The notes beneath the pieces were generated by a model. It was not told the DNA's origin. It did no database searches and saw only the letters and a list, made by a program, of their open reading frames with translations. A stretch of 64,000 bases of DNA from contig CAWKFB010000006.1 in assembly GCA_963848835.1 (NCBI GenBank), positions 180,279 through 244,278 of the forward strand, in the 5' to 3' direction. Shown piece by piece: positions 2 to 53,978 of this stretch. Source of the DNA: Candidatus Aminicenantes bacterium (lineage in GTDB: Bacteria; Acidobacteriota; Aminicenantia; Aminicenantales; UBA4085). Every line of letters starts with the position of its first letter. Within the stretch, counting starts at the first letter, position 1. Made by a program: the position numbers and the translations under genes.

Positions 2-568
2 CAATGGATGACCGCCGGAGGCGGGATCATCCATCAGGAGATGCCGCAGGCCCAAAAGGACTTCCTCCGGGGGCTCCAGCTGTGGGTCAACCTCCCGGCG
101 GCGAAGAAGATGATGGCCCCGCGCTACCAGGACATCAAGGCGGCCGACATCCCCGAGGTCAGAGAGGGCTCCGGGGCCGTGGTAAAGGTGATTGCCGGGA
201 CCTACGGCCGCGCCCGCGGGCCGGTCCGGGACATCGTCAGCGATCCCGAGTACCTCGACGTCACGCTTCCGGCCGGAGTCCGGTTCGTCCATGACGTCGA
301 ACCGGACCACACCGCTTTCGTCTATGTCATCGATGGGGGAGGGGGCTTCGACGCCGAGGGCACGGCGCTCGCGGCCGGAAAAGCGGGGCTCTACGGGCCG
401 GGCCGGACGCTCATGGCCGCGGCGGGGAAAGAAGGGGCGCGCTTCATCTGCGTTTCCGGCCGGCCGATCGGAGAGCCCGTCGCCTGGCGCGGTTCGGTCG
501 TCATGAACACCGAGGCCGAGCTCGACCGGGCTTACGCCGAGATCGCCTCCAAGACGTTCATTAAATAA
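2..568 (+). CDS. pirin family protein, C-terminal part (5' end outside window)
   Basis: ORF is open from the window edge. QWMTAGGGIIHQEMP matches the conserved pirin WMTAGxGIxHxE region, followed by a cupin-like C-terminal half. Stop TAA at 566-568. Confidence 0.8.
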   Translation, partial: QWMTAGGGIIHQEMPQAQKDFLRGLQLWVNLPAAKKMMAPRYQDIKAADIPEVREGSGAVVKVIAGTYGRARGPVRDIVSDPEYLDVTLPAGVRFVHDVEPDHTAFVYVIDGGGGFDAEGTALAAGKAGLYGPGRTLMAAAGKEGARFICVSGRPIGEPVAWRGSVVMNTEAELDRAYAEIASKTFIK

Positions 569-661
569 TCGGGGGACGTGGCACTCGTTTCCCGATTATG
601 AAGAGATTTCGACAATATTTATTGTCCGAAACCGGGAAACGAGTGCCACGTCCCCTTATTT
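563..661. terminator. long palindrome H1 at a convergent gene junction (candidate bidirectional terminator or palindromic repeat)
   Basis: Perfect 23-bp arms at 572-594 and 633-655 (GGGGACGTGGCACTCGTTTCCCG). The 38-nt loop holds an inner hairpin GACAAT-ATTT-ATTGTC (611-626). A/T extensions aaataa and ttattt flank the stem. It lies between the pirin stop (568) and the GH28 stop (670). GTCCCCTTATTTA occurs twice, at 650-662 and 664-676. Confidence 0.45.
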
Positions 662-5793: not shown

Positions 5794-8719
5794 GCGTCGT
5801 CCTCGTCCCGCCTCGATCCGGCCTGATCGCCGCCCTGGCCGACCGCCTCCGTCCCAGGGGCAAGGACTATTCGGGAGCCTGGATCGTCTTTCCTGAAAAG
5901 CGGCCCGGCTATCATCTCCGGAAAGCGCTGGCTGGGCGCGAAGGCACGGGCTTCGTTCCGCCCCGGATCGATTCCTTCGACGGGTTCGTCGACCGCGTCT
6001 TCGAAGAGCGCCTGAAGCGGGCCGCGCCGCTCCTCGACCCGCTCGACGCGGTCAAGATCCTGTTCGACATCCATCGCTCCGGGCCGGCCCCTCTCGACGG
6101 CCTGCCGTACGTCCACCCGGACGACTTCTTCGCTTTCGGACATAAGATGTACGCCGACCTAGAGGGTCTGATCGAAGCCGGAGTCGGCCCGGCGAAGCTC
6201 CGCGAGCTCGACATCGTCGCCGAAGAGGGCCGCGAGCGCAAGATCCCGAAGCGGTCCCGCGGCCGCCTCCAATCCCTCTCGTTCTTCCTGGAGAGATTCT
6301 CCGCAGCCGTCGCCGCGGACGGCCTCTCGACCCCGGCCTCGCGCAAGGCCGAGGTCGCGGCCGCGATGGGTCCCGGCCTCTTTCCGCCGGACGAAGATCT
6401 CTTCTTCGCGGGGTTCTTCGTCCTGACCGAAATGGAACGACGGATCCTCCACGCGGCGGCGGAACGGCCCCGGACGACCCTTCTCTTCCTCGAGGGGCGC
6501 GGGATCGAATCGGCTCCTCGCCGCGATCGGCGCCGAACCGGGTTCGGCCGAGTGCACGGCCGCGGCGCCGGGCCCGCCCCCGCGGCTGAATTTCACCAAG
6601 AGCCCCGACACCCACGGCCAGGTCTTCGCCCTGAACGGCTGGCTCGCGGACCGGCGATCCGCTCCCGGCGGGCTCGACGACCGGAGCGTCGTCGTCCTGC
6701 CCGCGGCGGAGTCTCTTTTCCCGCGTCTATCACCAGACGCTGGCCGCCCTCCCCGAGGACGGCTTCAACATCTCCATGGGCTACCCGCTTTCCCGGACGC
6801 CGCTCTTCACGTTCTTCGAGCACCTCTTCGAGGTCCTCCGGACGCGCGATGACGACGGCCGCGTTTTCGGCCCCCGCTATCTCAACTTCGTTCTCCATCC
6901 CTACACGAAGAACATCTTCTACCGCGACCGGTCGGGCGAGCGCCCCGACGTGACCCGCGTCCTGTTTCATGCCTTCGAGGAGCATTTCGCCCGGAAGGGC
7001 ATGAGCGCGTTCTGGTCGCTCGAGGAGCTCGAAACGGAGGGGAACCTGTGGGCAACGGTCGACGAGCTCTCCAAATCGCTCGAGGACCGGCCGCTCCGCG
7101 GCGAGCTCCGAGACCATCTCCGGTCCATCCATGACGGGACGCTCCGGGACTTCGCCGAGATCCGCGACGCGGCCGATTTCGGCCGGAAGGTCAACCGCGT
7201 CCTCGAGTACGTATACGCCCACTCGTCCGCCCGCCAGCATCCCTTCTTCTATCCCTTCGCCGAGGCCTTCCGGAAGCGTTTCGAAGCGCTGGCCGGGTCG
7301 CGGTTCGGGACGGTCGCCTTCGAGGATCCGTCGAGCTATTTTCACTTGTTCCGGAAGATCGTGACCGGGGGCAACGTCCCCTTCGCCGGGACGCCTTTGC
7401 GCGGGCTCCAGGTCCTCGGCTTCTGGGAGACGCGCGGCATTCCCTTTGAGGATGTCGCCCTCCTCGACGCCAACGAGGGCGTCCTGCCGGCGTTCCCGCG
7501 CTCGGACACGCTCCTGCCCCGCGCCGTCCGAAAAGCTCTCGGCCTGCCCACCTATGCCGACCTCGAGCGGCAAATGGCCTATCACCTCGAGGCGCTCGTC
7601 CGGGGCGCCCGGCGGGTCCAGGTCTTCTATGTCGAAAACAAAGACCGGGAGCGGAGCCGGTTCGTGGAAAGAATCCTCTGGGATCTGGAAAAAGACGGCG
7701 GCGGGCCCCGCGGGAACGGATCCGTCGGCGCCGTCCGGTACGCGGTCGATCTCCGGACGGGAGATCCGGGCCCGGTCGCGAAGACTGCGGACATATTGGC
7801 ATTCCTCCGGGATTTCCGTTATTCCGCTTCGAGCCTCAACACCTACCTCGCTTGTCCGCTCAGCTTTTTCAACGCCCACGTCCTCGGCTTGCGCGAGCGG
7901 GAGTCCGCCGAGGATTCGCTCGAAAGCAAGGACATCGGGTCCCTCGTCCACGCCGTTCTCGAGGACCTCTACCGGCCGTTCGTCGGGAAGACCTTCAAAG
8001 CGTCCGATCTCGGGCGGGCCGGTCTCGAAGCCGCCGTCGAGAGGCGTTTCGGAGAGCGCTTCGGACGGGATCCGAGGGGCGGCGCTTTCCTCCTCAAGCA
8101 CCAGGTCGTCCGGCATCTCCGGGCGTTCCTGTCCCGGTACCAGGCGGAGGTCCTGGCGGACCAGCCCTCAGGCTCGATCAAGCTCCTCGAGCTCGAGACG
8201 AAGCGCGACCTCGAGCTTGCTTTCGGAACTGATTCCTATCCGGCCACGGTCAAGGCCGACCGGGTCGAGGAGAGGAACGGCGTCCTCCACATCTTGGATT
8301 ACAAGACCGGGGCGGGCTCGAAATTCCATGAGATCGGGTTCCATAAGCTGGCGGAGGTTTCGCCGAGTGAGCTTCTCTCAAAGCCGAGGGCCCATTATCC
8401 GGTCGCCTTCAAGAGCGTTCAGATCCCCTTTTATATCCTGGCCTTCTCCCGGCTTTTCGGGATCGCCCGGGAATCCGTCGAAGGCAAGATCGTACTGCTC
8501 GGCAAGACGTCGCCCGACGCGCGATGCGAGTTTTCCCCCTTGGATTCGAAGAGTCGAAAGGACGTCATGCCGCGGGAGCGGAAGCTCGAGATGATGGAAG
8601 CGGTCATCCACGGTCTGCTCCGTGAGATCAACGATCCGGCGGTCCCCTTCGTCCCGGCCGAAGACGCCGCTCTGTGCGCCGAGTGCCCCTACGCCGTCAC
8701 CTGTGATCGCTTAAGTTGA
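5790..8719 (+). pseudogene. AddB-like PD-(D/E)XK nuclease partner, two +1 frameshifts
   Basis: GTG at 5790 overlaps the upstream stop (GTGA). Sensible protein continues across three frames joined near 6510 and 6722. C-terminal nuclease motif HILDYKTG and terminal cysteines CAECPYAVTC resemble AddB-type Fe-S nucleases. Length check: 2930 nt minus 2 gives 2928 nt. Confidence 0.75.
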
Positions 8720-9805
8720 TTTCCTGAGCTCGGCGCAGGTGATGCCCCTGGGATTGAAGCACTTGTTGCAGGAGATGCAGGCGGATTTGGCGATGCGGCC
8801 GGTCCGGAAATCGCGGACGAGGAACGGTTCGCGGATGAACGGCCGGCTGAGCGAAACCATGTCGGCCCGGCCCGAGGCGACGATCCTCTCCATGGCGGCC
8901 AGGGTCCTGTTCCCGCCCAGGCCGATGATCGGGACGGGAAGGGCTTTCTTGAATTTCGACGCGGCCTCGACGAAATAGCCCTCTTCGCTCTCGGCGCGGA
9001 GCCCCTGCCATATCGAGCCCCGGCCCGCTTCGGAAGAGCCTCCGCTAACTTCGATCGCGTCCAGCCCGGCTTCGACCGCCCGCCCAGCCATCTCCAGGCT
9101 ATCCTCGACCTCGAGTCCTCCCGGAAGATAATCAGCGGAATTCCATTTGGCAATGACGGGGAAATCTTTGCCCGCGATCGTTTTGACGGCCCGGACGATC
9201 TCGACGATGGCGCGGACCCGGTTTTCAGCCGAGCCGCCCCATTCGTCCGCGCGCCGGTTGGTATAAGGCGAAAGGAACGCGCTCAGCAGATAGCCATGGG
9301 CGGCGTGGACCTGGACGCCGTCGAAGCCCGCCTCCTTGGCCCGGCGGCCGGCGGCGGCGAAGTCGCGGATGAGGGCCCGGATCTCCTCTCCGGTCAACTC
9401 ACGCGGCAGGACCTTGACCACCGGCTCGAAGACCGCGGACGGGGCGACGGGAATGCCGCCGGCGAGCTTTTCCTTCGTCTGCCGCCCGGCGTGGGCGATC
9501 TGGACGAAGATCTTGGAGGCGTAGCGATGGACGGCGGCCGAGATCCGGCTCAGAGGCTCGATCAACCGGTCTTCGTAGATGCCGGTCTGGCGCGGGCTGG
9601 CCTTTCCGATGGGCTGGACATAGGCGTGTCCGGTGATGATCAGGCCGACCTCGCCCTCGGCGAGACGAGCGAAGAGCTCGACGTGGCGGTCCGATGGCGC
9701 CCCGTCGTCCTCGCCGGCCATGAACTCATGCGTGGCCGAGCGGACGAAGCGGTTCGGGATCGCGGCGCCGGCGATCCGGATGGGGGTGAACAGGATCGAT
9801 TCCAT
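8711..9805 (-). CDS. NADH:flavin oxidoreductase, Old Yellow Enzyme family
   Basis: Intact 364-aa ORF. N-terminal FTPIRIAGAAIPNRFVRSATHE, QIAHAGRQ and HAAHGYLLSAFLSPYTNRRADEWGGS are typical OYE/TIM-barrel flavoenzyme motifs. Confidence 0.9.
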   Translation of the reverse strand: MESILFTPIRIAGAAIPNRFVRSATHEFMAGEDDGAPSDRHVELFARLAEGEVGLIITGHAYVQPIGKASPRQTGIYEDRLIEPLSRISAAVHRYASKIFVQIAHAGRQTKEKLAGGIPVAPSAVFEPVVKVLPRELTGEEIRALIRDFAAAGRRAKEAGFDGVQVHAAHGYLLSAFLSPYTNRRADEWGGSAENRVRAIVEIVRAVKTIAGKDFPVIAKWNSADYLPGGLEVEDSLEMAGRAVEAGLDAIEVSGGSSEAGRGSIWQGLRAESEEGYFVEAASKFKKALPVPIIGLGGNRTLAAMERIVASGRADMVSLSRPFIREPFLVRDFRTGRIAKSACISCNKCFNPRGITCAELRKST

Positions 9806-9873
9806 GCCGCGTATTCTAGACGATTTCTGTCCGTCGGCAAAGCATACGAAGGAAGGCGGGGCTCCCGGGGTTT

Positions 9874-9923
9874 CGGCAAGGGCGGTCTCGCTCGGCGGGA
9901 AATCCTGACGCTCTGCCTGTCAT
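9874..9923 (+). repeat. repeat module X, copy 1
   Basis: 50 nt matching 53213-53262 with one mismatch. The last 44 nt (GGGCGGTCTCGCTCGGCGGGAAATCCTGACGCTCTGCCTGTCAT) are identical. Confidence 0.85.
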
Positions 9924-9944
9924 TCGAGCTCCTAGGATCGCTCC

Positions 9945-10034
9945 GGGATTGCCCCACGCTCACGTTGGAACCCTTCTGGTTCCCCCCGAATTAGGCGGGG
10001 CCCCCCCTCCTGATGTTCGCTTTGGGGCAATCCC
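9945..10034 (+). repeat. repeat module W, full copy (hairpin-closed, about 90 nt)
   Basis: 12-bp closing helix 9945-9956 / 10023-10034. Inner hairpins GGAACC-CTTCT-GGTTCC (9967-9983) and CCCC-loop-GGGG (9984-10000). Near-identical inverted copy at 53820-53912, with partial copies at 53745-53800 and 39119-39180. Confidence 0.8.
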
Positions 10035-10274
10035 TTCGCTCTCTGAGTCTTCCGTATTTTATGCTTGCAACTGGTCACGTGCTCAAACATTCTCGCGGCG
10101 CCGCTACGCGGGGCTACCCGTCGGAGCTCGGGACGCAGAGCTGGGATTTCCCGATGTCGCTCGAGCCGCCCTCGCCTCTCCGCAAGCTCGCCCTTACGCG
10201 GCTTGTACGTTGGCGCACCGGATCATCCCAAGATGCGTGGGCATGCCGAGCGGACGACTCGGACGATGAAAATC

Positions 10275-10355
10275 GGGACGCTCCCAGGACTCATATAAAT
10301 CATCTACCCCACCTGCCGCCCCTAGAACTCGGGGCGGACTGTCGGTAAGCGTCCC
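10275..10355 (+). repeat. repeat module U, copy 1 (candidate structured RNA/ssDNA element)
   Basis: Closing helix GGGACGCT (10275-10282) / AGCGTCCC (10348-10355). A/T box TCATATAAATCATCTAC. Inner hairpin CCGCCCC-TAGAACTC-GGGGCGG (10316-10337), followed by ACTG..GGTA. Confidence 0.75.
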
Positions 10356-10383
10356 TCCCAGCATGTCGCTCATCAGGGTGACG

Positions 10384-10490
10384 CAGCGAATCGGCCAAGT
10401 CTGTCCGCGGCAGGATTCTCGATCGCCGCCGTAAGATGATTGGGTCGCATGCGTCTGATATTCGGGGCGCGAGGGGGGCTCCCTGAGCGG
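10384..10490 (+). repeat. repeat module Z, copy 1
   Basis: Homologous to the reverse complement of 53316-53415. Shared blocks are GCGAATCGGCC..GTCCGCGGCAGGATTC and GCGTCTGATATTCGGGGCGCGAGGGGGGCTCCCTGAGCG. Confidence 0.7.
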
Positions 10491-10510
10491 GCCAGCGCAG
10501 CGAGCTTACC

Positions 10511-10594
10511 GGGACGCCTTCAAAACTCTCATGCATATTTATCTCTCTCTCCTACCTCTCCCAAGACTAGGAGAGGACTGCTGGTAGGCGTCCC
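10511..10594 (+). repeat. repeat module U, copy 2
   Basis: Closing helix GGGACGCCT (10511-10519) / AGGCGTCCC (10586-10594). A/T box ATGCATATTTATCTC. Inner hairpin CCTCTCC-CAAGACTA-GGAGAGG (10555-10576), followed by ACTG..GGTA. Confidence 0.75.
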
Positions 10595-10741
10595 TCCTAG
10601 TTGAATGGAGTCGAGCGAGAGCGAGCGAGCACGGGGAGCGGATTTTTCTCGCTGGGGAAAATCCGCGTCCCGATCAGGGAGTCCCCCGGGAGCCCCGTCG
10701 GATTCACAAGGTATTCCGGTACGTGCTAACGTTAGCGAGGA

Positions 10742-11365
10742 ATGCAACGGAAGAAACCCTCCAAAGGTTTGGTAACATTGGACATGGACGAACAGCATCT
10801 TGTCGGCCGGCTGCAGACGGGCGATGAGGCGGCATTTGCCGAGATCGTCCATATCTACAAAGACAAAATCGTGAATTACCTGTACCAGATCACGGGCGAC
10901 TATCAACGGGCGGTCGACCTGTCCCAGGAGACCTTCATCCGGGTCTTCTTCAAGGCGGACAAATACAAGCCCATCGCCCCGTTCTCGTCCTGGGTCTATG
11001 CCATCGCCTCGAACCTGGCCAAGACCGACTTGAAAAAGCGGCGCCGCATGGCCGCCGTCTCCCTGGACGTCCTGCCGCCTACGGTCGAGCTCAGCACGCC
11101 GAGCGGCGAGGCGTCGGACTCCGGCCTCGTCCGGAACCTCCGCCAGGCCCTGGAGGCGCTCAACCCGCGCTACCGGATTCCGATCATCCTTAAGGACGTG
11201 GAAGGCTATTCCCAGGAGGAGATCGCCGCGATCATCAAGCGGCCGGTCGGGACGGTCAAGGCCCGGATCAGCCGGGGCCGGGCGATCCTCCGCAAACAGC
11301 TCGAAAAGGCCGCCGGGGCGGAGACGCCCCTGCGCGTCCAGGAGTTTCTCGATGGAAGAATATGA
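10742..11365 (+). CDS. ECF-type RNA polymerase sigma-70 factor
   Basis: Region 2 (IYKDKIVNYLYQITGDYQRAVDLSQETFIRVF, FSSWVYAIASN) and region 4 (ILKDVEGYSQEEIAAIIKRPVGTVKARISRGR). An alternative ATG start lies at 10784. Confidence 0.9.
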   Translation: MQRKKPSKGLVTLDMDEQHLVGRLQTGDEAAFAEIVHIYKDKIVNYLYQITGDYQRAVDLSQETFIRVFFKADKYKPIAPFSSWVYAIASNLAKTDLKKRRRMAAVSLDVLPPTVELSTPSGEASDSGLVRNLRQALEALNPRYRIPIILKDVEGYSQEEIAAIIKRPVGTVKARISRGRAILRKQLEKAAGAETPLRVQEFLDGRI

Positions 11366-17051: not shown

Positions 17052-17137
17052 GCCGGAGTGGCGGAACTGGCAGACGCGCGGGACTCAAAATCCCGTCCGG
17101 GGCAACTCGGGTGTGGGTTCGATTCCCTCCTCCGGCA
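17052..17137 (+). tRNA. tRNA-Leu (anticodon CAA)
   Basis: 7-bp acceptor stem GCCGGAG/CTCCGGC with discriminator A. D-arm GCGGAACTGGCAGACGC. Anticodon stem-loop CGGGA-CTCAAAA-TCCCG. Long variable arm. T-arm GGGTTCGATTCCC. No encoded CCA. Confidence 0.9.
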
Positions 17138-24287: not shown

Positions 24288-25812
24288 TCAACGAGGGAGC
24301 TTGTCGGCGTAACCCTTGTGACGCGGGAATTCCGCGGCGAGGGAGCGGGTCAGCGCATCGAACCGGGCCGCCGCCTCGCGATAGACGGCCGCGGCGGCGG
24401 GATCGGGCTCGATGACGGGTCCGTCGCGGCGGATGAGCCGTCCCGCGATCTCGGCGATCCCGGTCGTTTCCCCCCGGTCGAGCCCGTGATTCCAGATCGC
24501 CTGGATCGCGGCCCCGTAAGCGGCCGCTTCGCGTTCCGCGGGAACGGAGATGGGCGCGTCCATGACGTCGGCGGCGATGCGCAGCCAGACAGGATTTTCC
24601 GAGCCGCCTCCCGTTGCCCGGAGCTCCGTCGCGGCGAGTCCGAGTGAACGGAGCCGCCGTAATCCGTAGCGCAAGTTCAGACAGATGCCTTCGAACATCG
24701 CCCGGGCGAGGTTCTGAGGCCGGAGATTCCGCGAGGTCAGTCCGAAGAACGCGCCGCTCGCCTCCGGGAGGATAGGCACGCGTTCCCCGTCGAGGTAGGG
24801 GAGATAGATGATCCCTTCCGCACCCGGGGGCGCTTCCGAGGCGGCCGCCGCGAGACCCGCGTGATCGAGCCGGAACAGACGGCGCATCGCGTCCTCGCCG
24901 TTTCCGGCGTTGAGAGTGCAGCTCAGCGGAAGCCACGCTCCCGTGCTGTCGCAAAAGCAGGCGATCTCGCCCCCGGCGTCGACCGCCGGCTTCTCCGCGT
25001 AACATGAGATCGTCCCGGACGTTCCCAGGCTGAGGGTCGCCCCGCCCGGCGAGACATTCCCGGTCCCGATGGCGGCCATCATATTGTCGCCGCCCCCGCT
25101 CGCCACCAGAACCCGCCCGAACCCGAACTTCCGGGCGATCGAGGGCCGGATCGTCCCGGCCGGAGTCCGGGGGTGGACCGGGACGGGCAGGAGGTCCGGG
25201 AGACGAGGATCGATCGTCTCAAGCGCTTCGGTCCGCCAATTTCGCGTCCGGACATCCAATCAGGCCCGTGCCCGACGCGTCGCCGAACTCCATCCGGTAT
25301 TCCCCGGTGAGGTGGAAATTCAGGTAATCGTGGGGGAGGAGGATATGGGCGAGGGCATCGAAGCGGTTCGGCTCGTGGCGCTTCAGCCATAGGATCTTAG
25401 AGGCGGTATAGCCGACGGCCAGCCCGAGGCCGAGCTTTTCGATCGCGCCCGCGGGACCTCCGAGCCGGTCCGTGATTTCGCGCGTCTCTTCGATCGTCGA
25501 CGTGTCATTCCACAGCTTGGCAGGCCGGATCGGGAGGCCGGCGGCGTCGAGCGGCACGAACCCGTGCTGTTGTCCGGATATGCCGACGGCGGCTACATTC
25601 GAGGGATCGATCGAGGATGCACGGATCGCTTCGGCCAGGGCGCTCTCCAGAGCGGCCGTCCACATTTCGGGCCGTTGTTCGCTCGCGCCCGGCGGCAGAC
25701 CGGGGATCATTTCGTGAACGGCCTGGGCCCGCCCGAGCACCCTTCCCGTTTCGGAATCGACGACGAGGACCTTGGTGCTTCCGGTCCCGGAATCCACGCC
25801 GATAGCGATCAT
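24288..25812 (-). pseudogene. xylB: xylulokinase (FGGY family), one +1 frameshift
   Basis: N-terminus MIAIGVDSGTGSTKVLVV...ISGQQHGFVPLD...GDASGTGL. It continues in the next frame as MDVRTRNW...GGGDNMMAAIGTGNV. There is an extra T at about 25258 (ctgaTTggatg). Length check: 1525 nt minus 1 gives 1524 nt. Confidence 0.8.
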
Positions 25813-34302: not shown

Positions 34303-34878
34303 ATGACCCTCCAAGAGTTGATCCGCAAGCGCCGGACCATCCGGCAATTCGGTCCCCAGCCGGTCGCTCCTGAGGCTTTGTCCAGGATCGTCGACGCCGG
34401 CCGCCTGGCGCCCTCCGCGGCCAACCATCAGCCGCTCGAGTTCATCGCTGTCGACCGTGAAGACCTGCGGGCGAAGATCTATCCCGGTCTGAAATTCGCC
34501 TCGGCGATCGCCCCCGCGGGCTTTCCCCGGCCGGGCAACGAGCCGAAGGCCTATATCTTCACCCTCGTCAACCTGAAGATCCGGGAGAAGATGTACGAAT
34601 ACGACGTCGGGGCGGCGATGGAGAACATGTGCCTCGCCGCGCTGGCCGAGGGGCTCGCGAGCGCTTGGATCATCTCCATCGACCGGGCGGCCATGGCCGA
34701 GCTGTTGGGCGTTCCGGTGGAATACAAGATCGACTCCGTCTTGGCTTTAGGATATCCGGCCCAGGAATCGATCGCCGAGGTCTCGACCGAGACGACGACG
34801 TACTGGCAGGACGAGGATCTGACCTTCCACGTCCCGAAGCGTCCCCTCTCGGCCGTGCTCCACATCAACAAATTCTAG
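34303..34878 (+). CDS. nitroreductase family protein
   Basis: RRTIRQFGPQPV...RLAPSAANHQPLEFI is the classic nitroreductase FMN-binding N-terminus. 191 aa. Confidence 0.85.
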   Translation: MTLQELIRKRRTIRQFGPQPVAPEALSRIVDAGRLAPSAANHQPLEFIAVDREDLRAKIYPGLKFASAIAPAGFPRPGNEPKAYIFTLVNLKIREKMYEYDVGAAMENMCLAALAEGLASAWIISIDRAAMAELLGVPVEYKIDSVLALGYPAQESIAEVSTETTTYWQDEDLTFHVPKRPLSAVLHINKF

Positions 34879-34965
34879 AAATCGCTGCCAGTCATCTGAA
34901 TACGCCAATTTTCCGGACCGTGAAACAGCGAAATAGGCTTATTCAGATGACTGGCACCGATTTCT
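34877..34965. terminator. long palindrome H2 at a convergent gene junction (candidate bidirectional terminator or palindromic repeat)
   Basis: 26-bp arms at 34877-34902 and 34940-34965 (AGAAATCGCTGCCAGTCATCTGAATA) with one C-C mismatch, and a 37-nt loop. Starts inside the nitroreductase stop codon and ends 17 nt before the pmbA stop. Confidence 0.45.
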
Positions 34966-34981
34966 GTGAGCGATCCCGGAG

Positions 34982-36335
34982 CTAGGATCCGGCGATGAGC
35001 ATCTCGGCGACCTTGATAGTCGGGCCGCAGATCGAGCCGCGGAACTCGAGGTCGCTTCCGACCATCTCGATCCCCTTGAGGACTTCGTCCAGGTTCCCCG
35101 AAATCGTGATCTCGGAGACGGGATAAGCGATCTCGCCCTTTTCGATCCACAGGCCGAAGGCGCCCCGGGAGATGTCCCCGGTCACCGGATTCAACCCGTG
35201 GCCGAGCGTCCGGATGAGGAGAAGCCCCTCGGCGCAGGACCGGATGATCTCGTCGGGCGAATGAGGCCCGGCTTCCATGTAGAAGTTATTAGGCCCGGCG
35301 CCCGATCCGGCCGCGTTGCCCGTGGACGTCCTGCCCAGCTTCCGGGCGGCGTAGGTGTCGCACAGGAAGCTCTCCAGGATGCCGGCCGTCACGACCTTCG
35401 TCCGCCGGCAGGGGAGGCCCTCCGCGTCGAACGGGCTCGATCCGGGGCGGCGCGGCATCAGGCCGTCGTCGACGATCGTGATCCGATCGCTCGCGATGTG
35501 CGTCCCGAGACGCTCGGCGAGATACGTCGACCGTTGATAGACCGACGTCCCCGAGACGCAGGAAAAGAGGAAGCCCAGCAATCCCGACGTCATGAGCGGC
35601 TCGAAGATGACCGGAACACGGCGGGTCGCGGATCTTGCGCGGGCTGAGCTGCCGGACGGTCCGGGCGATCGCGGTCCGGGCGATCTTCTCGGGAGGGTCG
35701 AGGTCGCGAAAGTGCGTCTCCGCCGAAAACCAGAAATCCTCGACCTTGTCGTCGGTCGGACCGGCCTGGAGGGCTAGGCTCAGGTCGAAGTGCGTCCGGC
35801 GGAATTCGCCCAGGAAGCCGTTCGAGCTCGCCAGGACGGAGCGCGAATCGCCCGAGGAGAATCCCGCCCCATAGCTGTTGGTGATCCGCTTGTCGGCCAG
35901 GGCGATCCGCTCGGTTTCGAGGGCCAGGCCGATCTTCGTCCTCGGATCGAGCCTCTCGATCTCCGGATCGAAGAGGTCGAGCGCGGCCGGATCGATCCCG
36001 GCCGTGGCGAGCTCGGGCAGGCCGGAGAACGGATCGGGATTGGCCAGCTCGGCGCGCCGGACGGCGTTCCGGATGAGCTCGTGGACCGTTTCCTCCCGGA
36101 GGTCCGAGGACGAGGCGAAGGCGGTCTTGTGGTCCTTGATGACCCGGAAGCCGAGCCCGCGGCTCCCGGCTTCGACCAGGTTCTCGATCTCGCCCATCCG
36201 GATGTCGACAGAGAACTCGACCCCGTCGCCGATCGCGAGCTCGATCTCGTCCGCGCCCGCGCGCCGGCCGAAGTCGACGAGCTTCGCGGCTAGGTCGAGA
36301 AGCGGGCTTGCCGCGGCTCCCAGAGGGGCGCTCAT
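34982..36335 (-). pseudogene. pmbA: PmbA/TldE metalloprotease subunit, one +1 frameshift
   Basis: N-terminal part MSAPLGAAASPLLDLAAKLVDFGRRAGADEIEL... joins the C-terminal part ...TRRVPVIFEPLMTSGLLGF...GPTIKVAEMLIAGS at about 35627. The ATG overlaps the tldD stop (ATGA). Length check: 1354 nt minus 1 gives 1353 nt. Confidence 0.8.
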
Positions 36336-37784
36336 TCGCGTCCTCCGACGGTCATCTTGGAGATCTTGATCGTCGGGCAGCCGTCCATGACCGGGACATC
36401 CTGGCCTTCCTTGCTGCACGTGCCCGTCTGTTGGCTCCAGTCCAGATCGTCGCCGACCATCTCGATCCTGCGGAGGATGTCGAGGTTCGACCCGATGAGG
36501 GTCGCCTGCTTGACCGGGGCGGTCAGGCGGCCGTCCTCGATCAGGAATCCCGAGCTGACGGAGAACGTGAACTTGCCCGAGTCCTCGACCTGGCCGCCTT
36601 GGAACCGGTCGGCATAGAATCCCTTTTTCACCGAGCGTATGATCTCTTCGGGCGGAGTCTCGCCCGGATCGATATAGGTGTTGGCCATGCGCGGGATGGG
36701 GATGTCCGTGTAGTCCTGCCTCCTCCCGTGGCCCGTCGGCTTCATCTTGAGGATCCGCGCGGACAGGCGGTCCTGGAGGAGCCCCCGGACGACGCCGCGC
36801 TCGATGAGCGTGGCTTTGCCCGGGACCGTCCCTTCGTCGTCGATGCTATAGGAGCCGCGGAAGGACGGAATGGTCGGATCGTCGTGGATCGTCACGAGCG
36901 CCGAGCCGACCTTTTTGCCGATCTTGTCCCAGAAGACCGAGGTCTTCTTGCGGATGAAATCCGCTTCGAGGAGGTGGCCGACGGACTCGTGGATGAGCAC
37001 TCCGGCGTGGCCGGGCGAGAGGACGACGGGCATCTCGCCCGCGGGCGCCGGCCGGGCGTCGAGAAGCTGAAGGGCTTCCTCCGCCGCTTCCCGGCCGATC
37101 TCCTCGGGTGTCAGGACGCGGGAGAAATGCTCGAGGCCGACACGGCCTCCGCCGCCCGAGAAGCCGTACTCCCGCAGGCCCGCCTTCTCGGCGATGGCCA
37201 CGCAGGTCAGCTTGACCATCGGCCGCTCGTCGGAGGCGAGATGGCCTTCGGAATCGGCGACGAGAAGGCGCTGCATGCCGCTTTGGAAACCGGCTTTGAC
37301 CTTGTGGACCGCCGGATCGGCGGCCTGGCAGGCGGCGTAAGCCGACCGGACGAGGGCGATCTTGGCTTCGAGCGGGGCCGAGGCCGGCGGCAACTTCGAC
37401 GCGGAAGGGGCTCGGGACGGGACCGATCACGCGAAGATCGGCGGCCTTCGCCGAGGGGGACGAGGCCGCGATGGCGGCCGCGGAGCGCGCGGCCTGGCGG
37501 AGTCTCTCCGGAGAAAGGTCGTTCGTATATCCGTAGCCCGTCTTCTCTCCGGAAAGGACCCGGATCCCGACGCCGAGGGAAACGCTCTCGGATGTGTCCT
37601 TGATGATGTCCTCTTCCATGAAGATGGACTCGTGGGTCCGGTATTCGGCGAAAATCTCGGCGAAATCGCCGCCGGAAGCGAGCGCGGCGTCCAGGACCTG
37701 GCGCAGGAGGGTCGGGGTCAGGCCAAAGCGGTCTTCGAAGGAGAACATGTCGGCCATTCTGGCATAGATAAGCGGCTCCCGCAA
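36332..37784 (-). pseudogene. tldD: TldD metalloprotease, one +1 frameshift
   Basis: HESVGHLLEADF (HExxxH) and the GFYADRFQGGQV...GTCSKEGQ core. The N-terminal and C-terminal frames join at about 37393. Start is TTG at 37784 or ATG at 37757. Confidence 0.8.
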
Positions 37785-37808
37785 GAAGGGCTCCGGGATT
37801 GTACCTTT

Positions 37809-37969
37809 CCCGAAGCGCCGACGATTCCCTTTGCCCGTGCCGCTTTCGGATTTTCGTATTGATTTCTACCCCCCAGCCCCCCTACGACAAACAGGGGGGA
37901 TTTGAAAGCGGCTCGGGAAAGGTGTGCAGGGGGGAGAAGATCAATAAGGAAATTTGGGGGCGCTTCGGG
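37809..37969. repeat. nested head-to-head pair of V-type repeat units
   Basis: Outer helix CCCGAAGCGCC (37809-37819) / GGCGCTTCGGG (37959-37969). Inner unit at 37828-37922 has its own roughly 18-bp helix, an A/T box GTATTGATTTCTA and hairpin CCCCCC-TACGACAAACA-GGGGGG. A second A/T box TTATTGATCTTCTCC reads on the minus strand (37935-37955). Confidence 0.7.
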
Positions 37970-37993
37970 CCATCTTCGGAAATCGCCCCACGC

Positions 37994-39025: not shown

Positions 39026-39118
39026 GGCCGTATCTTCGCATTGTCGTTCGGGGCCCGTCAACCCAATCGAGCGCCCACGATAATGGATTGTGGGCTCCCG
39101 GTGAAGAGGGTCAAGGGG

Positions 39119-39180
39119 AGCGAACATCACGGAAGGGGGGCCCCTTTGGGGGGAACCGGGACGGGTTCCCCCGTGAGCGT
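39119..39180 (-). repeat. repeat module W, partial copy without closing helix
   Basis: GCGAACATCACGGAAGGGGGGCCCC..GGGGGGAACC-GGGACG-GGTTCC..CGTGAGCG aligns with 53832-53898 and with the reverse complement of 9956-10020. Indels relative to the other copies break any common reading frame. Confidence 0.65.
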
Positions 39181-39290
39181 TGAGTCATCCCGTAGCTCTC
39201 CTTGTTTGACCCGGTTCATCATGATATTCTGAAACTCCAAAAATGGGACCGATCATCGGCATTTTCCCGCTCTTCGCCCAGGAGGCCGAC

Positions 39291-53140: not shown

Positions 53141-53212
53141 GATCCCTCCTCTTCCTTCCTGATTCGACTATAGGTCCGCCCCCCTCCGTTGTCAAGAAAG
53201 TTCGGGATGGAT

Positions 53213-53262
53213 CGGCGAGGGCGGTCTCGCTCGGCGGGAAATCCTGACGCTCTGCCTGTCAT
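53213..53262 (+). repeat. repeat module X, copy 2
   Basis: Matches 9874-9923 (49 of 50 nt, with 44 contiguous identities). Followed at 53272-53285 by CGGGGCTCCCGGGG, which precedes X in the other island. Confidence 0.85.
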
Positions 53263-53315
53263 CGAAAAGAACGGGGCTCCCGGGGGCTCCCCCGGCTCAC
53301 GAAGAATGTTCGCCT

Positions 53316-53415
53316 TAGGGAGCCCCCTCGCGCCCCGAATATAAGACGCGGACGTCCTGCGAGTTTTCGTCGATCTCGGTGAATCCTGCCGCGGACGGCT
53401 CGGCCGAATTCGCCG
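53316..53415 (-). repeat. repeat module Z, copy 2
   Basis: Its reverse complement aligns with 10384-10490. Confidence 0.7.
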
Positions 53416-53540
53416 CATCCTTCCCCCGACCCGGGGGACCCCATCCGGCTCATCGTCCGAGTCGTCCGTACGTCAGGCGCGCGCTCCCAATGGCCGATCG
53501 TGGGACGGTGAGCGAAGATATCGCCATCGTACCTGCGGGA

Positions 53541-53623
53541 GGGACGCCTACCTGCAGTCCCTTCGAGTCGTAGAAGGGGAAGGGGATGTAGAGAATTATA
53601 GATAAGATTCCGGAAGGCGTCCT
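53541..53623 (-). repeat. repeat module U, copy 3
   Basis: Read on the minus strand: AGGACGCCT ... TATAATTCTCTAC ... CCCTTC-TACGACTC-GAAGGG ... ACTGCAGGT-AGGCGTCC. Same architecture as 10275-10355 and 10511-10594. Confidence 0.75.
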
Positions 53624-53648
53624 GGTCTTATGCGCGGTCCGAAGATCG

Positions 53649-53731
53649 CCCGAAGCGCCCCCCGAATTTCTTTATTGATATTCTCCTCCCTGCCCCCCAA
53701 CTAACATGGGGGGATTCGTCGGCGCTTCGGG
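53649..53731 (+). repeat. repeat module V (U-like unit with a different closing helix)
   Basis: CCCGAAGCGCC (53649-53659) / GGCGCTTCGGG (53721-53731), plus CGAAT/ATTCG. A/T box TTTATTGATATTCTCC. Hairpin CCCCCC-AACTAACAT-GGGGGG. Related copies at 37809-37969 and 23080-23125. Confidence 0.7.
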
Positions 53732-53744
53732 AAAGGAACGAACC

Positions 53745-53800
53745 CGCGCTTCGCGGAGGGAACCCGCTCGGATTCCCCTTGTGAGCATTGGGGCAATTCT
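53745..53800 (-). repeat. repeat module W, second degenerate copy
   Basis: Minus strand reads AATTGCCCCAATGCTCAC-AAG-GGGAATCC-GAGC-GGGTTCCC-TCCGCGAAGCG, which parallels the 5' half of W. Confidence 0.5.
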
Positions 53801-53819
53801 GAAAAACTCTCCGGGCGGA

Positions 53820-53912
53820 GGGATTGCCCATAAAGCGAACATCAGGAGGGGGGGCCCCGCCTAATTCGGGGGGGAACCAGGAGGGTTCCAACGTGAGCTT
53901 ATGGGCAATCCC
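53820..53912 (-). repeat. repeat module W, full copy (inverted relative to 9945-10034)
   Basis: Closing helix GGGATTGCCCAT/ATGGGCAATCCC. Hairpins GGAACC-CTCCT-GGTTCC and CCCC-GAATTAGGC-GGGG. The tail CCTCCTGATGTTCGCTTT is conserved. Confidence 0.8.
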
Positions 53913-53978
53913 GAAGCCGTTTGACTTGGACCCTACGGGTTCATATCATACGTCCGGCTCGAAAAGGAGAATCCATCC

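What the first reader, a model, noticed from the sequence alone, without database searches (positions are those of the whole stretch)
9857..10697. Gene-free 0.84-kb mosaic island of shuffled repeat modules bounded by a perfect 14-bp inverted repeat
The 936-bp gap between the divergent OYE (-) and ECF sigma (+) genes has no credible CDS. It consists of modules reused elsewhere in the window.

- **Order on the plus strand:** P (CGGGGCTCCCGGGG, 9857-9870), X (9874-9923), W (9945-10034), about 240 nt of locally unique sequence, U1, Z, U2, then an X-like hairpin GCGGATTTT...AAAATCCGC (10638-10668).
- **Boundary:** the exact reverse complement of P lies at 10684-10697.

The layout resembles enterobacterial BIMEs (mosaics of REP and accessory motifs) or a non-autonomous element with terminal inverted repeats. 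The motifs themselves are unfamiliar to me. No transposase is present in the window.
Basis: seen in the sequence. Interest (0 to 1): 0.7.

Follow-up and report, generated by a model that had tools for sequence, protein, structure and literature searches.

The report
Nested mobile hairpin repeats, one flipped
The gene-free stretch between the OYE and sigma-factor genes is a pile-up of small hairpin-shaped repeat elements inserted into one another in an uncultured Aminicenantes-like bacterium, and its interior lies flipped between its 14-bp inverted ends compared with related genomes; it is a new example of a known kind of bacterial repeat DNA, not a new kind of system.

Summary
P (9857-9870) and its exact reverse complement (10684-10697) bound an 841-bp non-coding island with no Rfam or Pfam match.

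The modules are separate hairpin or terminal-inverted-repeat (TIR) units nested inside each other:
- **Q:** an outer hairpin element whose arm ends are P and P'.
- **X-long:** a roughly 305-bp hairpin (9873-10177).
- **W:** a three-stem unit nested in X-long.
- **U1, U2, Z, Y and hairpin H.**

All families recur in four other intergenic sites of the window and in related metagenome contigs, always between genes.

- **Presence or absence:** orthologous OYE/sigma spacers hold 841, 601 or 191 bp between P ends, a rearranged island of about 390 bp (L022), or nothing (123-bp spacer). The second island (53141-53978) is also absent in a relative.
- **Inversion:** the window's interior is inverted relative to L010 and L012, with breakpoints inside P.
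- **Structure:** W and U stems show compensatory changes but almost no wobble pairs.
- **Enzymes:** no recombinase or transposase domain was found in the 47 ORFs outside the island that were scanned, out of roughly 55 to 60 genes.

Best reading (0.7): a lineage-specific nest of non-autonomous MITE/REP-like hairpin repeats. A programmed switch is not excluded (about 0.1).

The parts
9813..9840 (-). OYE core promoter (TTGCCG-16-TAGAAT, 7 nt before the ATG), outside the island and conserved in relatives
   Evidence: the only sigma-70-like site found in 9700-10900. The same -10 box and spacing are visible in L010, L012 and L014.
9857..9870 (+). P, the left island end (CGGGGCTCCCGGGG). It is a copy of the tip of a Q-type hairpin arm and one breakpoint of the inversion.
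   Evidence: Conserved at island ends in L010, L012 and L022.
9873..10177 (+). Paired arm segments are 9875-9886 with 10165-10176 (my reading of the sequence) and 9896-9905 with 10144-10153. It is 244 bp in relatives and expanded here by W1.
   Evidence: arm pairs in the window, L010 and L016. (L010:9369-9612 is 92% identical to L016:7409-7648 and 69% to window 9871-10177).
9941..10038 (+). W1, a three-stem hairpin unit nested inside X-long. The outer stem is 9945-9956 with 10023-10034.
   Evidence: (z-score -4.7).
10235..10269 (+). Y, a short module that recurs inverted in island 2 (53450-53484).
   Evidence: (I13).
10275..10355 (+). U1, a hairpin unit: outer stem GGGACGC/GCGTCCC, an AT-rich segment, and an inner hairpin that covaries between copies.
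10380..10487 (+). Z module. Its 3' end (10463-10491) is the left arm of the Q hairpin element.
   Evidence: I1.
10463..10697 (.). Q hairpin element. The arms are 10463-10491 and 10669-10697 (29 nt, 83% complementary). U2 and hairpin H lie in its loop, and P' is the tip of its right arm.
   Evidence: I1 in the window, I1 in L010. (the L010 Q element has an 83% copy in L004:1193-1345 at an unrelated locus).
10511..10594 (+). U2, a second U copy, nested in the loop of Q.
10632..10672 (+). H hairpin (GCGGATTTT...AAAATCCGC). It lies next to P' here but next to the OYE-side P in L012 and L022.
   Evidence: I4.
10684..10697 (-). P', the right island end, exact reverse complement of P and the second inversion breakpoint.
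10698..10783 (+). Conserved sigma-proximal flank outside the island. It holds the palindrome GCTAACGTTAGC (10725-10736) and an ECF-type-looking motif (TGCAAC-N18-GTT) about 20 nt before the likely start at 10784.
   Evidence: 88% identical to L010 over 100 nt. The promoter reading is my inference from the sequence.
53141..53978 (.). Second island, between the GNAT and ChaN genes, built from the same families: X arm 53212-53262, P 53272-53285, mini W/Q hairpin 53272-53338, Z 53314-53419 (minus), Y 53450-53484 (minus), U3 53531-53622 (minus), V 53638-53746, W2 53816-53916 (minus).
37794..37980 (+). V module between two tandem genes. It has long arms (CCTTTCCCGAAGCGCC type) and further copies in island 2 and in L001, L015, L016 and L018.
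   Evidence: (I5, I10).
39112..39195 (-). W3, a divergent W copy in the 112-bp spacer between the LPG-synthase and rhamnosidase genes.
34877..34965 (.). T hairpin (35-nt arms, 91% complementary), followed by a W-type end (GTGAGCGATCCCGGAGC). It shows only a weak 34-nt match (82%, E 0.008) to the hairpin repeats at L004:950-1050 and L006:12021-12111.
   Evidence: (I6).

Best explanation
The island is a nest of small non-autonomous hairpin-shaped repeat elements, each bounded by terminal inverted repeats. They are MITE/REP-like and specific to a narrow clade of uncultured Aminicenantes-like bacteria.

**Shown**
- There are at least five families (Q/P, X-long, W, U, V, plus Z, Y, H and T). Each has complementary arms around a variable interior.
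- They occur only between genes. They are present or absent at orthologous sites. They sit inside one another, for example U inside W at the same W position in two unrelated loci.
- The island lies between the OYE core promoter and the conserved sigma-proximal flank.
- P and P' are the tips of the arms of the outermost (Q-type) element.
- The segment between them is inverted in this genome relative to L010 and L012, with the breakpoints inside the 14-bp arms.

**Inferred**
- The units are copied in trans by an enzyme encoded elsewhere. It is probably a type that leaves no target-site duplication, such as an HUH/Y1 (RAYT-like) or IS110-like enzyme, and it probably prefers the loops or junctions of existing hairpins.
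- The inversion is a single evolutionary 'loop flip' by recombination or template switching between the inverted arms.
- The island is tolerated because it does not disrupt either promoter. Any effect on expression, such as insulation or RNA hairpins when read through, is secondary.
For: **1. Dispersed families**
- A blastn of the island against the window finds copies in 53141-53978 and 39119-39202. add 37794-37980 and 34877-34965.
- The U motif hits 9 metagenome contigs. In 8 of them (all but L005) W lies in the same intergenic spacer, adjacent in most.
- X-long and Q have 83-92% copies at unrelated loci.

**2. Presence or absence at orthologous sites**
- Length between P ends is 841 bp (window), 601 bp (L010) and 191 bp (L012). 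L022 has a rearranged island of about 390 bp.
- L014 has only a 123-bp spacer without P or X, and no island module was detected in L015.
- Island 2 is 838 bp here, 664 bp in L016 and 135 bp (empty) in L018, L019 and L020.

**3. Nesting**
- U sits in W right after ...GCGAACATC in L008 and L009. V sits inside W in L001 and L016. Q sits inside W in L004. W1 sits inside X-long. U2 and H sit inside Q.

**4. Copies within the genome are more alike than orthologs**
- X is 50/51 identical between the two islands, against 85-93% to X in L010 and L012.
- The W1/W2 core is 42/42 identical (I1).

**5. Inversion**
- Local alignment score of the window interior against L010 is 114 flipped and 27 unflipped. 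Against L012 it is 44 and 21.
- The flanks outside P are collinear (62 against 5, and 42 against 9).

**6. Hairpins are maintained**
- W: 95.4% of cells paired, 13 of 28 pairs with changes on both sides, 0 of 500 shuffles as high.
- U: 97.2% paired, 5 of 19 pairs with changes on both sides, 0 of 500 shuffles.
- Pairs are almost all Watson-Crick, with no excess of G-U on either strand. This fits DNA-level arms better than an RNA read from one strand.

**7. Nothing else explains it**
- No Rfam family, no Pfam in the island ORFs, and only the OYE promoter is predicted.
Against: - No target-site duplication is visible at any module end (read by eye).
- No transposase or recombinase was found in the 47 window ORFs scanned or in the Pfam gene tables returned for the fetched loci. 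Mobility is therefore inferred, not shown.
- The genome-wide copy number is unknown, because the source genome and its close relatives are not in the genome collection.
- Compensatory changes and sequence-conserved loops and junctions (W: CGCTCAC and TGATGTTCGC; U: loop TAGGACTC and GGACTGC) suggest the units are constrained rather than purely decaying junk. The constraint could be recognition by an enzyme, or a host function such as an RNA element.
- Gene conversion between copies, rather than transposition, could explain the high similarity within the genome.
Confidence: 0.7

Rival explanations
1. Programmed invertible switch (inverton). A site-specific recombinase flips the P-bounded segment, so that different internal signals face the ECF-sigma operon or OYE, giving phase-variable expression.
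For: - The inverted-repeat-bounded segment lies between divergent genes, and both orientations exist among relatives, with breakpoints inside the conserved 14-bp repeat.
- The 9-mer GGGGCTCCC/GGGAGCCCC occurs six times in 64 kb, all inside the two islands.
- Four of the six closest sigma homologs found (97-98% identical) lie on contigs of 1-2 kb. L011 and L013 end inside the island. That could reflect heterogeneity, or simply repeats.
Against: - Only one flip among four island-bearing species is needed to explain the data. No orientation polymorphism within a population was seen.
- No recombinase was found in the window ORFs scanned or in the flanks of relatives.
- No sigma-70-type promoter is predicted inside the segment.
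- Both genes keep conserved promoter-like sequence outside the segment.
- Relatives do without the island altogether.
- L022 shows further internal rearrangements not bounded by P. This points to general instability of inverted repeats.
Confidence: 0.1
2. Functional structured RNA. The modules, W and U above all, are cis-regulatory or small-RNA motifs, and the island is a long structured leader of the sigma operon or a cluster of sRNA genes.
For: - There is strong covariation and there are conserved unpaired nucleotides in W and U.
- W folds far better than shuffles (z-scores -4.7 and -6.6).
- U carries a TATAAT-like AT-rich box before its inner hairpin.
- C-rich CCCUCC stretches recur in unpaired positions. 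This is my own reading of the sequences.
Against: - Copies occur in every context and orientation, including downstream of convergent genes and antisense to both neighbours.
- They interrupt one another.
- Pairs are over 94% Watson-Crick, with G-U no commoner than A-C.
- Both strands fold equally well.
- No Rfam match.
- The likely sigma promoter lies downstream of the island (my inference).
Confidence: 0.15
3. Chance similarity or an assembly artefact. The inverted repeat and the inversion come from misassembly of repeats in a metagenome-assembled genome.
For: - A perfect inverted repeat of 14 bp or more is not very rare by chance (3%).
- The window carries several genes split into adjacent ORFs, which suggests indel errors.
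Against: - P and P' are conserved at the island ends in independent assemblies from other samples.
- A 14-bp repeat is shorter than the k-mer sizes usual for assemblers (my background knowledge), so it should not cause a false inversion.
- Module families recur in many independent contigs with covariation.
Confidence: 0.03

Closest known systems
REP/BIME and REPIN elements of Proteobacteria (mobilised by RAYT, a Y1/HUH transposase)
   Same: - Intergenic hairpin-forming repeats, clustered into mosaics.
- Units in both orientations, with recurrent tail-to-tail dimers. Here W and U face each other across a conserved linker in 5 loci.
- No target-site duplication.
- Copies persist with maintained stems.
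- REPs nested inside larger palindromes and mosaic intergenic regions are described in PMC3733652.
   Different: - Units are 85 to about 305 bp with multi-stem interiors, not 20-40-bp single hairpins.
- There is no unpaired GTAG or CGTC head next to a short stem. U contains GTAG and CGTC, but inside its stems.
- No RAYT gene was seen in about 245 kb of available DNA.
- Copy number per genome is unknown.
Bacterial MITEs with structured interiors (Correia/NEMIS of Neisseria, ERIC/IRU of enterobacteria, modular BOX elements of pneumococcus) - comparison from my own knowledge
   Same: - 50-300-bp non-coding units with terminal inverted repeats.
- Dispersed in intergenic DNA, with presence or absence between strains.
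- Able to fold as RNA when co-transcribed.
- Modular or nested variants exist.
   Different: - No target-site duplication, whereas Correia elements duplicate TA.
- No related full-length IS was found.
- Several unrelated families nest into each other at defined positions.
- Sequences are unrelated to any known family (no Rfam or plasmid hit).
IS elements that target REP hairpins (IS1397/ISKpn1 and IS110-family ISPpu9/10; PMC1525189, PMC12288879 listed)
   Same: Insertion aimed at palindromic repeat units rather than random DNA. Here U enters W at one position in two loci, and inserts also lie in the W P2 and P3 loops.
   Different: Here the inserting units are themselves non-coding hairpins, and no transposase gene is attached.
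Invertons, or phase-variable invertible promoters (E. coli fimS; Bacteroides Mpi-controlled promoters) - comparison from my own knowledge
   Same: A segment of a few hundred bp bounded by short inverted repeats, lying between or upstream of genes and found in both orientations.
   Different: - No invertase was found.
- No promoter is predicted inside.
- The orientation difference is seen only between species.
- The segment is dispensable in relatives.
Small hairpin-loop inversions in chloroplast non-coding DNA - comparison from my own knowledge
   Same: Recurrent inversion of a loop between short inverted repeats without any dedicated recombinase. This is the best analogue for the P/P' flip and for the internal Z rearrangement in L022.
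   Different: The loop here is 813 bp for 14-bp arms, much larger than typical plastid cases.

Membership tests
REP/BIME | Unit is a 20-40-bp imperfect palindrome with an unpaired GTAG (or CGTC) tetranucleotide at one end (PMC3733652) | tested here: not met
   Units are 85 to about 305 bp with two or three internal stems. In U, GTAG and CGTC lie inside paired stems.
REP/BIME | REPs in alternating orientation separated by conserved linkers | tested here: inconclusive
   A W-then-inverted-U dimer with the linker ...ATCCCGTCGCCGACCTGCAGGAGGGACGCC recurs in L001, L003, L004, L006 and L009. In the window's island 1, W and both U copies are co-oriented and far apart.
REP/BIME | High copy number (tens to hundreds per genome) | not testable with these tools
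   The source genome is not retrievable and the lineage is absent from genome contigs. Local density is 5 sites in 64 kb.
REP/BIME | Cognate RAYT (Y1 transposase) gene flanked by the repeats | tested here: inconclusive
   No transposase domain appears among the 47 window ORFs scanned outside the island or in the Pfam tables of L010, L012, L014-L019 and L022. Only about 245 kb was available.
MITE | Terminal inverted repeats around a short non-coding interior (50-500 bp) | tested here: met
   W arms are 12-16 bp, U 8 bp, X-long 12-14 bp plus a further 10-bp pair, Q 29-33 nt, V about 16-21 nt. No Pfam match in the ORFs.
MITE | Multiple dispersed copies | tested here: met
MITE | Presence or absence at orthologous sites | tested here: met
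   Island 1 is absent in L014, and no island module was detected in L015. Island 2 is absent in L018, L019 and L020.
MITE | Target-site duplication flanking each copy | tested here: not met
   No direct repeat flanks P/P', W, U or X-long in filled sites, nor in comparisons of filled with empty sites (inspected by eye).
MITE | A related autonomous IS with the same ends | not testable with these tools
Inverton (phase-variable invertible segment) | Segment bounded by inverted repeats and found in both orientations | tested here: met
   Window against L010 and L012. This is between species only.
Inverton (phase-variable invertible segment) | Both orientations coexist within one population | not testable with these tools
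   No reads are available. Look-ups of near-identical strains were exhausted (one search used the last one).
Inverton (phase-variable invertible segment) | Site-specific recombinase (adjacent or global) | tested here: inconclusive
   None among the scanned ORFs of the window or in the neighbouring genes of relatives. A distant global invertase cannot be excluded.
Inverton (phase-variable invertible segment) | Promoter or other directional signal inside the segment | tested here: not met
   The consensus scan finds only the OYE promoter, which is outside the segment. ECF-type or other promoter classes were not scanned.
Known RNA family (Rfam 15) | Covariance-model match at or near the gathering score | tested here: not met
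   Only a tRNA was found in the window. The best island hits have E of 0.87 or worse and fall far below gathering scores.

The most novel reading that the evidence does not exclude
W, U, V, Q and X-long could form a set of structured nucleic-acid elements that home site-specifically into each other's loops and junctions, using a mobilisation machinery not yet described for this phylum. That could be single-stranded DNA hairpin recognition or an RNA-guided recombinase encoded elsewhere. The P-bounded loop could then be flipped by the same machinery and act as a heritable switch next to an envelope-stress sigma operon.
Probability: 0.1. Interest if true: 0.7.

Novelty: new member of a known kind. 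Interest (0 to 1): 0.4.

Why it matters
- **New territory:** I know of no description of repeat families in Aminicenantes, an uncultured sediment and subsurface lineage, and one three-term literature search returned only an unrelated paper. This window gives at least five families with clear anatomy, nesting rules and covariation-supported structures.
- **Practical use:** the covariance model for W and the U motif can serve as lineage markers and as flags for contig breaks in metagenome assemblies. Several related contigs end inside these islands.
- **Annotation:** these findings warn against annotating such islands as regulatory RNAs or as phase-variation switches without read-level evidence.
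- **Biology:** hairpin repeats grow by nesting in the promoter-free gap between divergent genes and can be inverted between 14-bp arms. If the mobilising enzyme were found, the defined insertion point of U in W would make the target recognition directly testable.

Tried and rejected
- **Known RNA families.** Rfam at gathering and at E up to 10 on both islands gave nothing. I considered a hammerhead-like reading of W because of its CUGAUG box and three-way junction. I rejected it because the order of conserved strands does not fit on either strand and Rfam is silent.
- **Coding potential.** Eight island ORFs have no Pfam match. Relatives differ by large insertions and deletions.
- **Source genome.** Exact-protein look-ups for sigma and OYE, and for the 100% hit P0001, failed. 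Cluster look-up gave no names or accessions. The lineage was inferred only from the names of homologs (Candidatus Aminicenantes / Acidobacteriota).
- **Genome-collection scans.** The U motif gave 0 hits. The W motif gave 1 hit, L021, which lacks the rest of W and looks like chance. The viral collection gave 0 and plasmids gave no match.
- **Recombinase or transposase search.** Pfam on 47 window ORFs outside the island found none.
- **REP membership via GTAG/CGTC tags.** Not met.
- **Target-site duplications.** None found.
- **Strand of a putative RNA.** G-U against A-C counts show no asymmetry.
- **U as an sRNA gene with its own promoter.** The AT-rich box has no convincing -35, and the scan finds no promoter there.
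- **Orientation of W relative to neighbouring genes.** Uninformative, because most sites are divergent or convergent spacers.
Full report
**1. Checking the observation**

The sequence is as described.
- P (CGGGGCTCCCGGGG) lies at 9857-9870 and its exact reverse complement at 10684-10697.
- The flanking genes are an Old Yellow Enzyme family reductase (8711-9805, minus strand) and an ECF sigma factor, followed by a Pfam-less 124-aa ORF (a putative anti-sigma factor, inferred from position only) and an HtrA-type protease.
- The ORF-to-ORF gap is 936 bp. Most close homologs were called at 193 aa, some at 207, so the true sigma start may be 10784 and the gap 978 bp.
- The eight ORFs in the gap have no Pfam match.
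- Rfam reports only a tRNA elsewhere in the window, and nothing near significance in either island.
- A perfect inverted repeat of 14 bp or more is not rare by itself. It arises in 3% of composition-matched random regions. What makes P real is its conservation at the island ends in other genomes, described below.

**2. The modules are real repeat families**

A blastn of the island against the window finds a second island at 53141-53978, between a GNAT acetyltransferase and a ChaN/PDZ lipoprotein gene. It carries X, P, Z, Y, U and W, mostly in the opposite orientation. The same search finds a third W at 39112-39195. Related modules also sit at 37794-37980 (V) and 34877-34965 (T). Short repeats in the 64-kb window are confined to these intergenic sites.

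One scan of metagenome contigs with a 20-base U motif returned nine contigs. In eight of them (all but L005) W lies in the same intergenic spacer, adjacent in most.

In these contigs the modules are always intergenic. They occur upstream of genes, downstream of convergent genes and antisense to both neighbours.

Two motif scans of 185,579 species-representative genomes found no true copy. The viral and plasmid collections have none either. Homologs of the flanking proteins are named Candidatus Aminicenantes or Acidobacteriota. The families therefore appear restricted to a narrow uncultured clade.

**3. Anatomy: each module is a hairpin unit, and the units are nested**

- **W.** W has a 12-16-bp outer stem (GGGATTGCCC / GGGCAATCCC). 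It has conserved junction strands (CGCTCAC and TGATGTTCGC) and two inner hairpins. It folds far better than shuffled sequence, with z-scores of -4.7 and -6.6.
  - A covariance model built from W1 and W2 finds 12 copies in the DNA held.
  - 95.4% of cells are paired, and 13 of 28 pairs show changes on both sides. No shuffle out of 500 reaches these values, and the slid controls are far lower.
  - Caveat: that alignment is fitted to the model, so the pair counts lean towards the structure.
- **U.** U has an 8-bp outer stem (GGGACGCC / GGCGTCCC), an AT-rich stretch and a 7-bp inner hairpin with a conserved loop.
  - On a plain MAFFT alignment of 13 copies, 97.2% of cells are paired. Five of 19 pairs carry compensatory changes, and 0 of 500 shuffles are as high.
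- **X.**
  - Its arms pair in two segments: GGCAAGGGCGGT with GCCGCCCTCGCC (my reading of the sequence), and CGGGAAATCC with GGATTTCCCG.
  - In relatives it is 244 bp long and occurs in both islands at 92% identity (L010:9369-9612 and L016:7409-7648).
  - In the window it is expanded by W1, which replaces an internal segment.
- **P'.** P' is the tip of the right arm of a Q-type hairpin element.
  - The arms are 10463-10491 and 10669-10697, 29 nt long and 83% complementary. U2 and hairpin H lie in its loop.
  - The Q element of L010 has an 83% copy at an unrelated locus, nested inside a W (L004:1193-1345).
  - Small intact Q hairpins contain the W junction motifs (GCTCAC ... ATGTTCGC) between GGGGCTCCC and GGGAGCCCC arms. 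They occur in island 2 (53272-53338), L003 and L022. P-type arms are therefore a variant of W-type arms.
  - The 9-mer GGGGCTCCC/GGGAGCCCC occurs six times in the window, all inside the two islands.
- **Nesting is recurrent and position-specific.**
  - U lies inside W immediately after ...GCGAACATC in both L008 and L009.
  - V lies inside W in L001 and L016.
  - Another insert sits in the W P2 loop in L008.

**4. Comparative evidence: gain or loss, and inversion**

Homologs of OYE, ChaN and sigma led to orthologous loci.

Island 1, measured between the outer edges of P:

| Genome | Identity to the window | Island 1 |
|---|---|---|
| Window | - | 841 bp |
| L010 | OYE 88% | 601 bp |
| L012 | OYE 86% | 191 bp |
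| L022 | sigma 94% | rearranged island of about 390 bp |
| L014 | OYE 84% | none: 123-bp spacer without P or X |
| L015 | OYE 73% | none of the island modules detected |

Island 2 is 838 bp in the window and 664 bp in L016. It is absent from L018, L019 and L020, which have a 135-bp spacer.

The flanks outside P are collinear in all genomes, but the interior is not.
- In L010 and L012, P plus X lies on the sigma side.
- In L012, the block GCGTCCCGATCAGGGAG plus P' lies on the OYE side. L022 also has the H-type hairpin next to its OYE-side P.
- In the window the arrangement is the reverse.
- The local alignment score of the window interior against L010 is 114 when flipped and 27 unflipped. Against L012 it is 44 and 21.
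- The flanks score 62 and 42 in the collinear orientation, against 5-9 otherwise.

The breakpoints therefore lie within the 14-bp arms. One inversion in the window's lineage explains the pattern. L022 also has part of Z inverted relative to the rest, so rearrangements between inverted copies are not limited to P.

**5. What it most likely is and does**

- **Shown.** The island is a nest of TIR-bounded hairpin repeats. They belong to dispersed families, are gained and lost at orthologous sites, and are maintained as hairpins.
[quoted passage not shown] X is 50/51 identical between the two islands, against 85-93% across species. The W core is 42/42 identical.
- **Inferred.** The units are copied in trans by an enzyme encoded elsewhere.
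  - No target-site duplication is seen. The units prefer hairpin loops and junctions.
  - Both points favour a mechanism of the HUH/Y1 (REP/RAYT-like) or IS110-like kind over a DDE transposase.
  - No such gene occurs in the 47 window ORFs scanned outside the island (out of roughly 55 to 60 genes) or in the Pfam gene tables returned for the fetched loci.
  - Stem pairs are over 94% Watson-Crick. G-U pairs are no commoner than A-C (U: 2 against 3; W: 3 against 5). Both strands fold equally well. This fits constraint at the DNA level, such as arm-to-arm homogenisation or enzyme recognition, better than an RNA read from one strand.
- **Position.** The island sits between the two core promoter regions.
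  - The OYE promoter (TTGCCG-16-TAGAAT, 7 nt before the ATG) is the only sigma-70-like site found, and it lies outside P.
  - The 86 nt between P' and the sigma start are conserved. They contain an ECF-like TGCAAC-N18-GTT motif. The promoter reading is my inference.
  - The insertion therefore need not disturb either gene, which explains why it is tolerated and can grow.

**6. Rivals**

- **Programmed inverton.** This remains possible: inverted repeats, two orientations, and a location next to a stress sigma operon. Against it, there is no invertase and no internal promoter. There is no within-population evidence, and close relatives lack the segment. I give it about 0.1.
- **Functional-RNA reading of W and U.** Covariation and conserved loops favour it. 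Context-free distribution, mutual interruption and the lack of wobble asymmetry weaken it. I give it about 0.15. It is not exclusive of mobility.
- **Artefact.** This is very unlikely, given independent assemblies.

**7. Comparison with known systems**

The island works like REP/BIME/REPIN and MITE nests. PMC3733652 describes REPs inserted in larger palindromes and mosaic intergenic regions in Neisseria. IS elements that target REPs are known.
- **REP/BIME membership fails on unit size and on the GTAG/CGTC head.**
- **MITE membership** is met for terminal repeats, size, dispersion and presence or absence. It is not met for target-site duplication.
- **The P flip** resembles hairpin-loop inversions known from plastid non-coding DNA (my own knowledge).

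**Verdict.** These are new families of a known kind of element, in a phylum where I know of none described. Interest is moderate, at 0.4.

Noticed in passing
window 24288-25812; 34982-36419; 36332-37784: Three genes appear split into adjacent or overlapping ORFs: an FGGY kinase in two pieces and two PmbA/TldD-type peptidase genes, each in two frames. This suggests frameshift-type indel errors in the assembly, or pseudogenes. The lengths of C and G runs inside the repeat modules may therefore be unreliable.
   Followed up: partly
window 10725-10736: A perfect 12-bp palindrome, GCTAACGTTAGC, lies about 50 nt upstream of the sigma start. It is conserved in L010 and partly in L022, but not in L012. 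It could be an operator site for a regulator of the sigma operon.
   Followed up: no
window 34877-34985; L004:950-1050; L006:12021-12111: The window has a roughly 90-bp hairpin with 35-nt arms. It abuts a W-type end (GTGAGCGATCCCGGAGC). L004 and L006 share an 87%-identical hairpin repeat (GGTGCCAGTCATCT... arms), to which the window hairpin has only a weak 34-nt match (82%, E 0.008).
   Followed up: partly
L011:1-127, L013:1-117, L017:1-141, L023:1-79: Several short contigs from other samples end inside or right next to these islands. Four of the six closest sigma homologs found (97-98% identical) lie on contigs of only 1-2 kb. The repeat nests seem to break metagenome assemblies.
   Followed up: partly
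L001, L003, L004, L006, L009 (e.g. L006:11222-11419): W and an inverted U recur as a tail-to-tail dimer with a conserved linker (...ATCCCGTCGCCGACCTGCAGGAGGGACGCC...). This may be a composite unit of about 210 bp.
   Followed up: partly
window 567-660: A 31-nt inverted repeat (90% complementary, 32-nt loop) lies between the Pirin-like gene and the next gene on the opposite strand. It is probably a terminator-like hairpin and is unrelated to the module families.
   Followed up: no
L022:16534-20624: About 6-10 kb from the sigma gene, this relative carries small hypothetical genes plus HTH_17 and AAA_25 domain genes. These are absent from the syntenic part of the window and may belong to an integrated mobile element.
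   Followed up: no
window 17052-17137: A tRNA gene, the only Rfam hit in the window.
   Followed up: no
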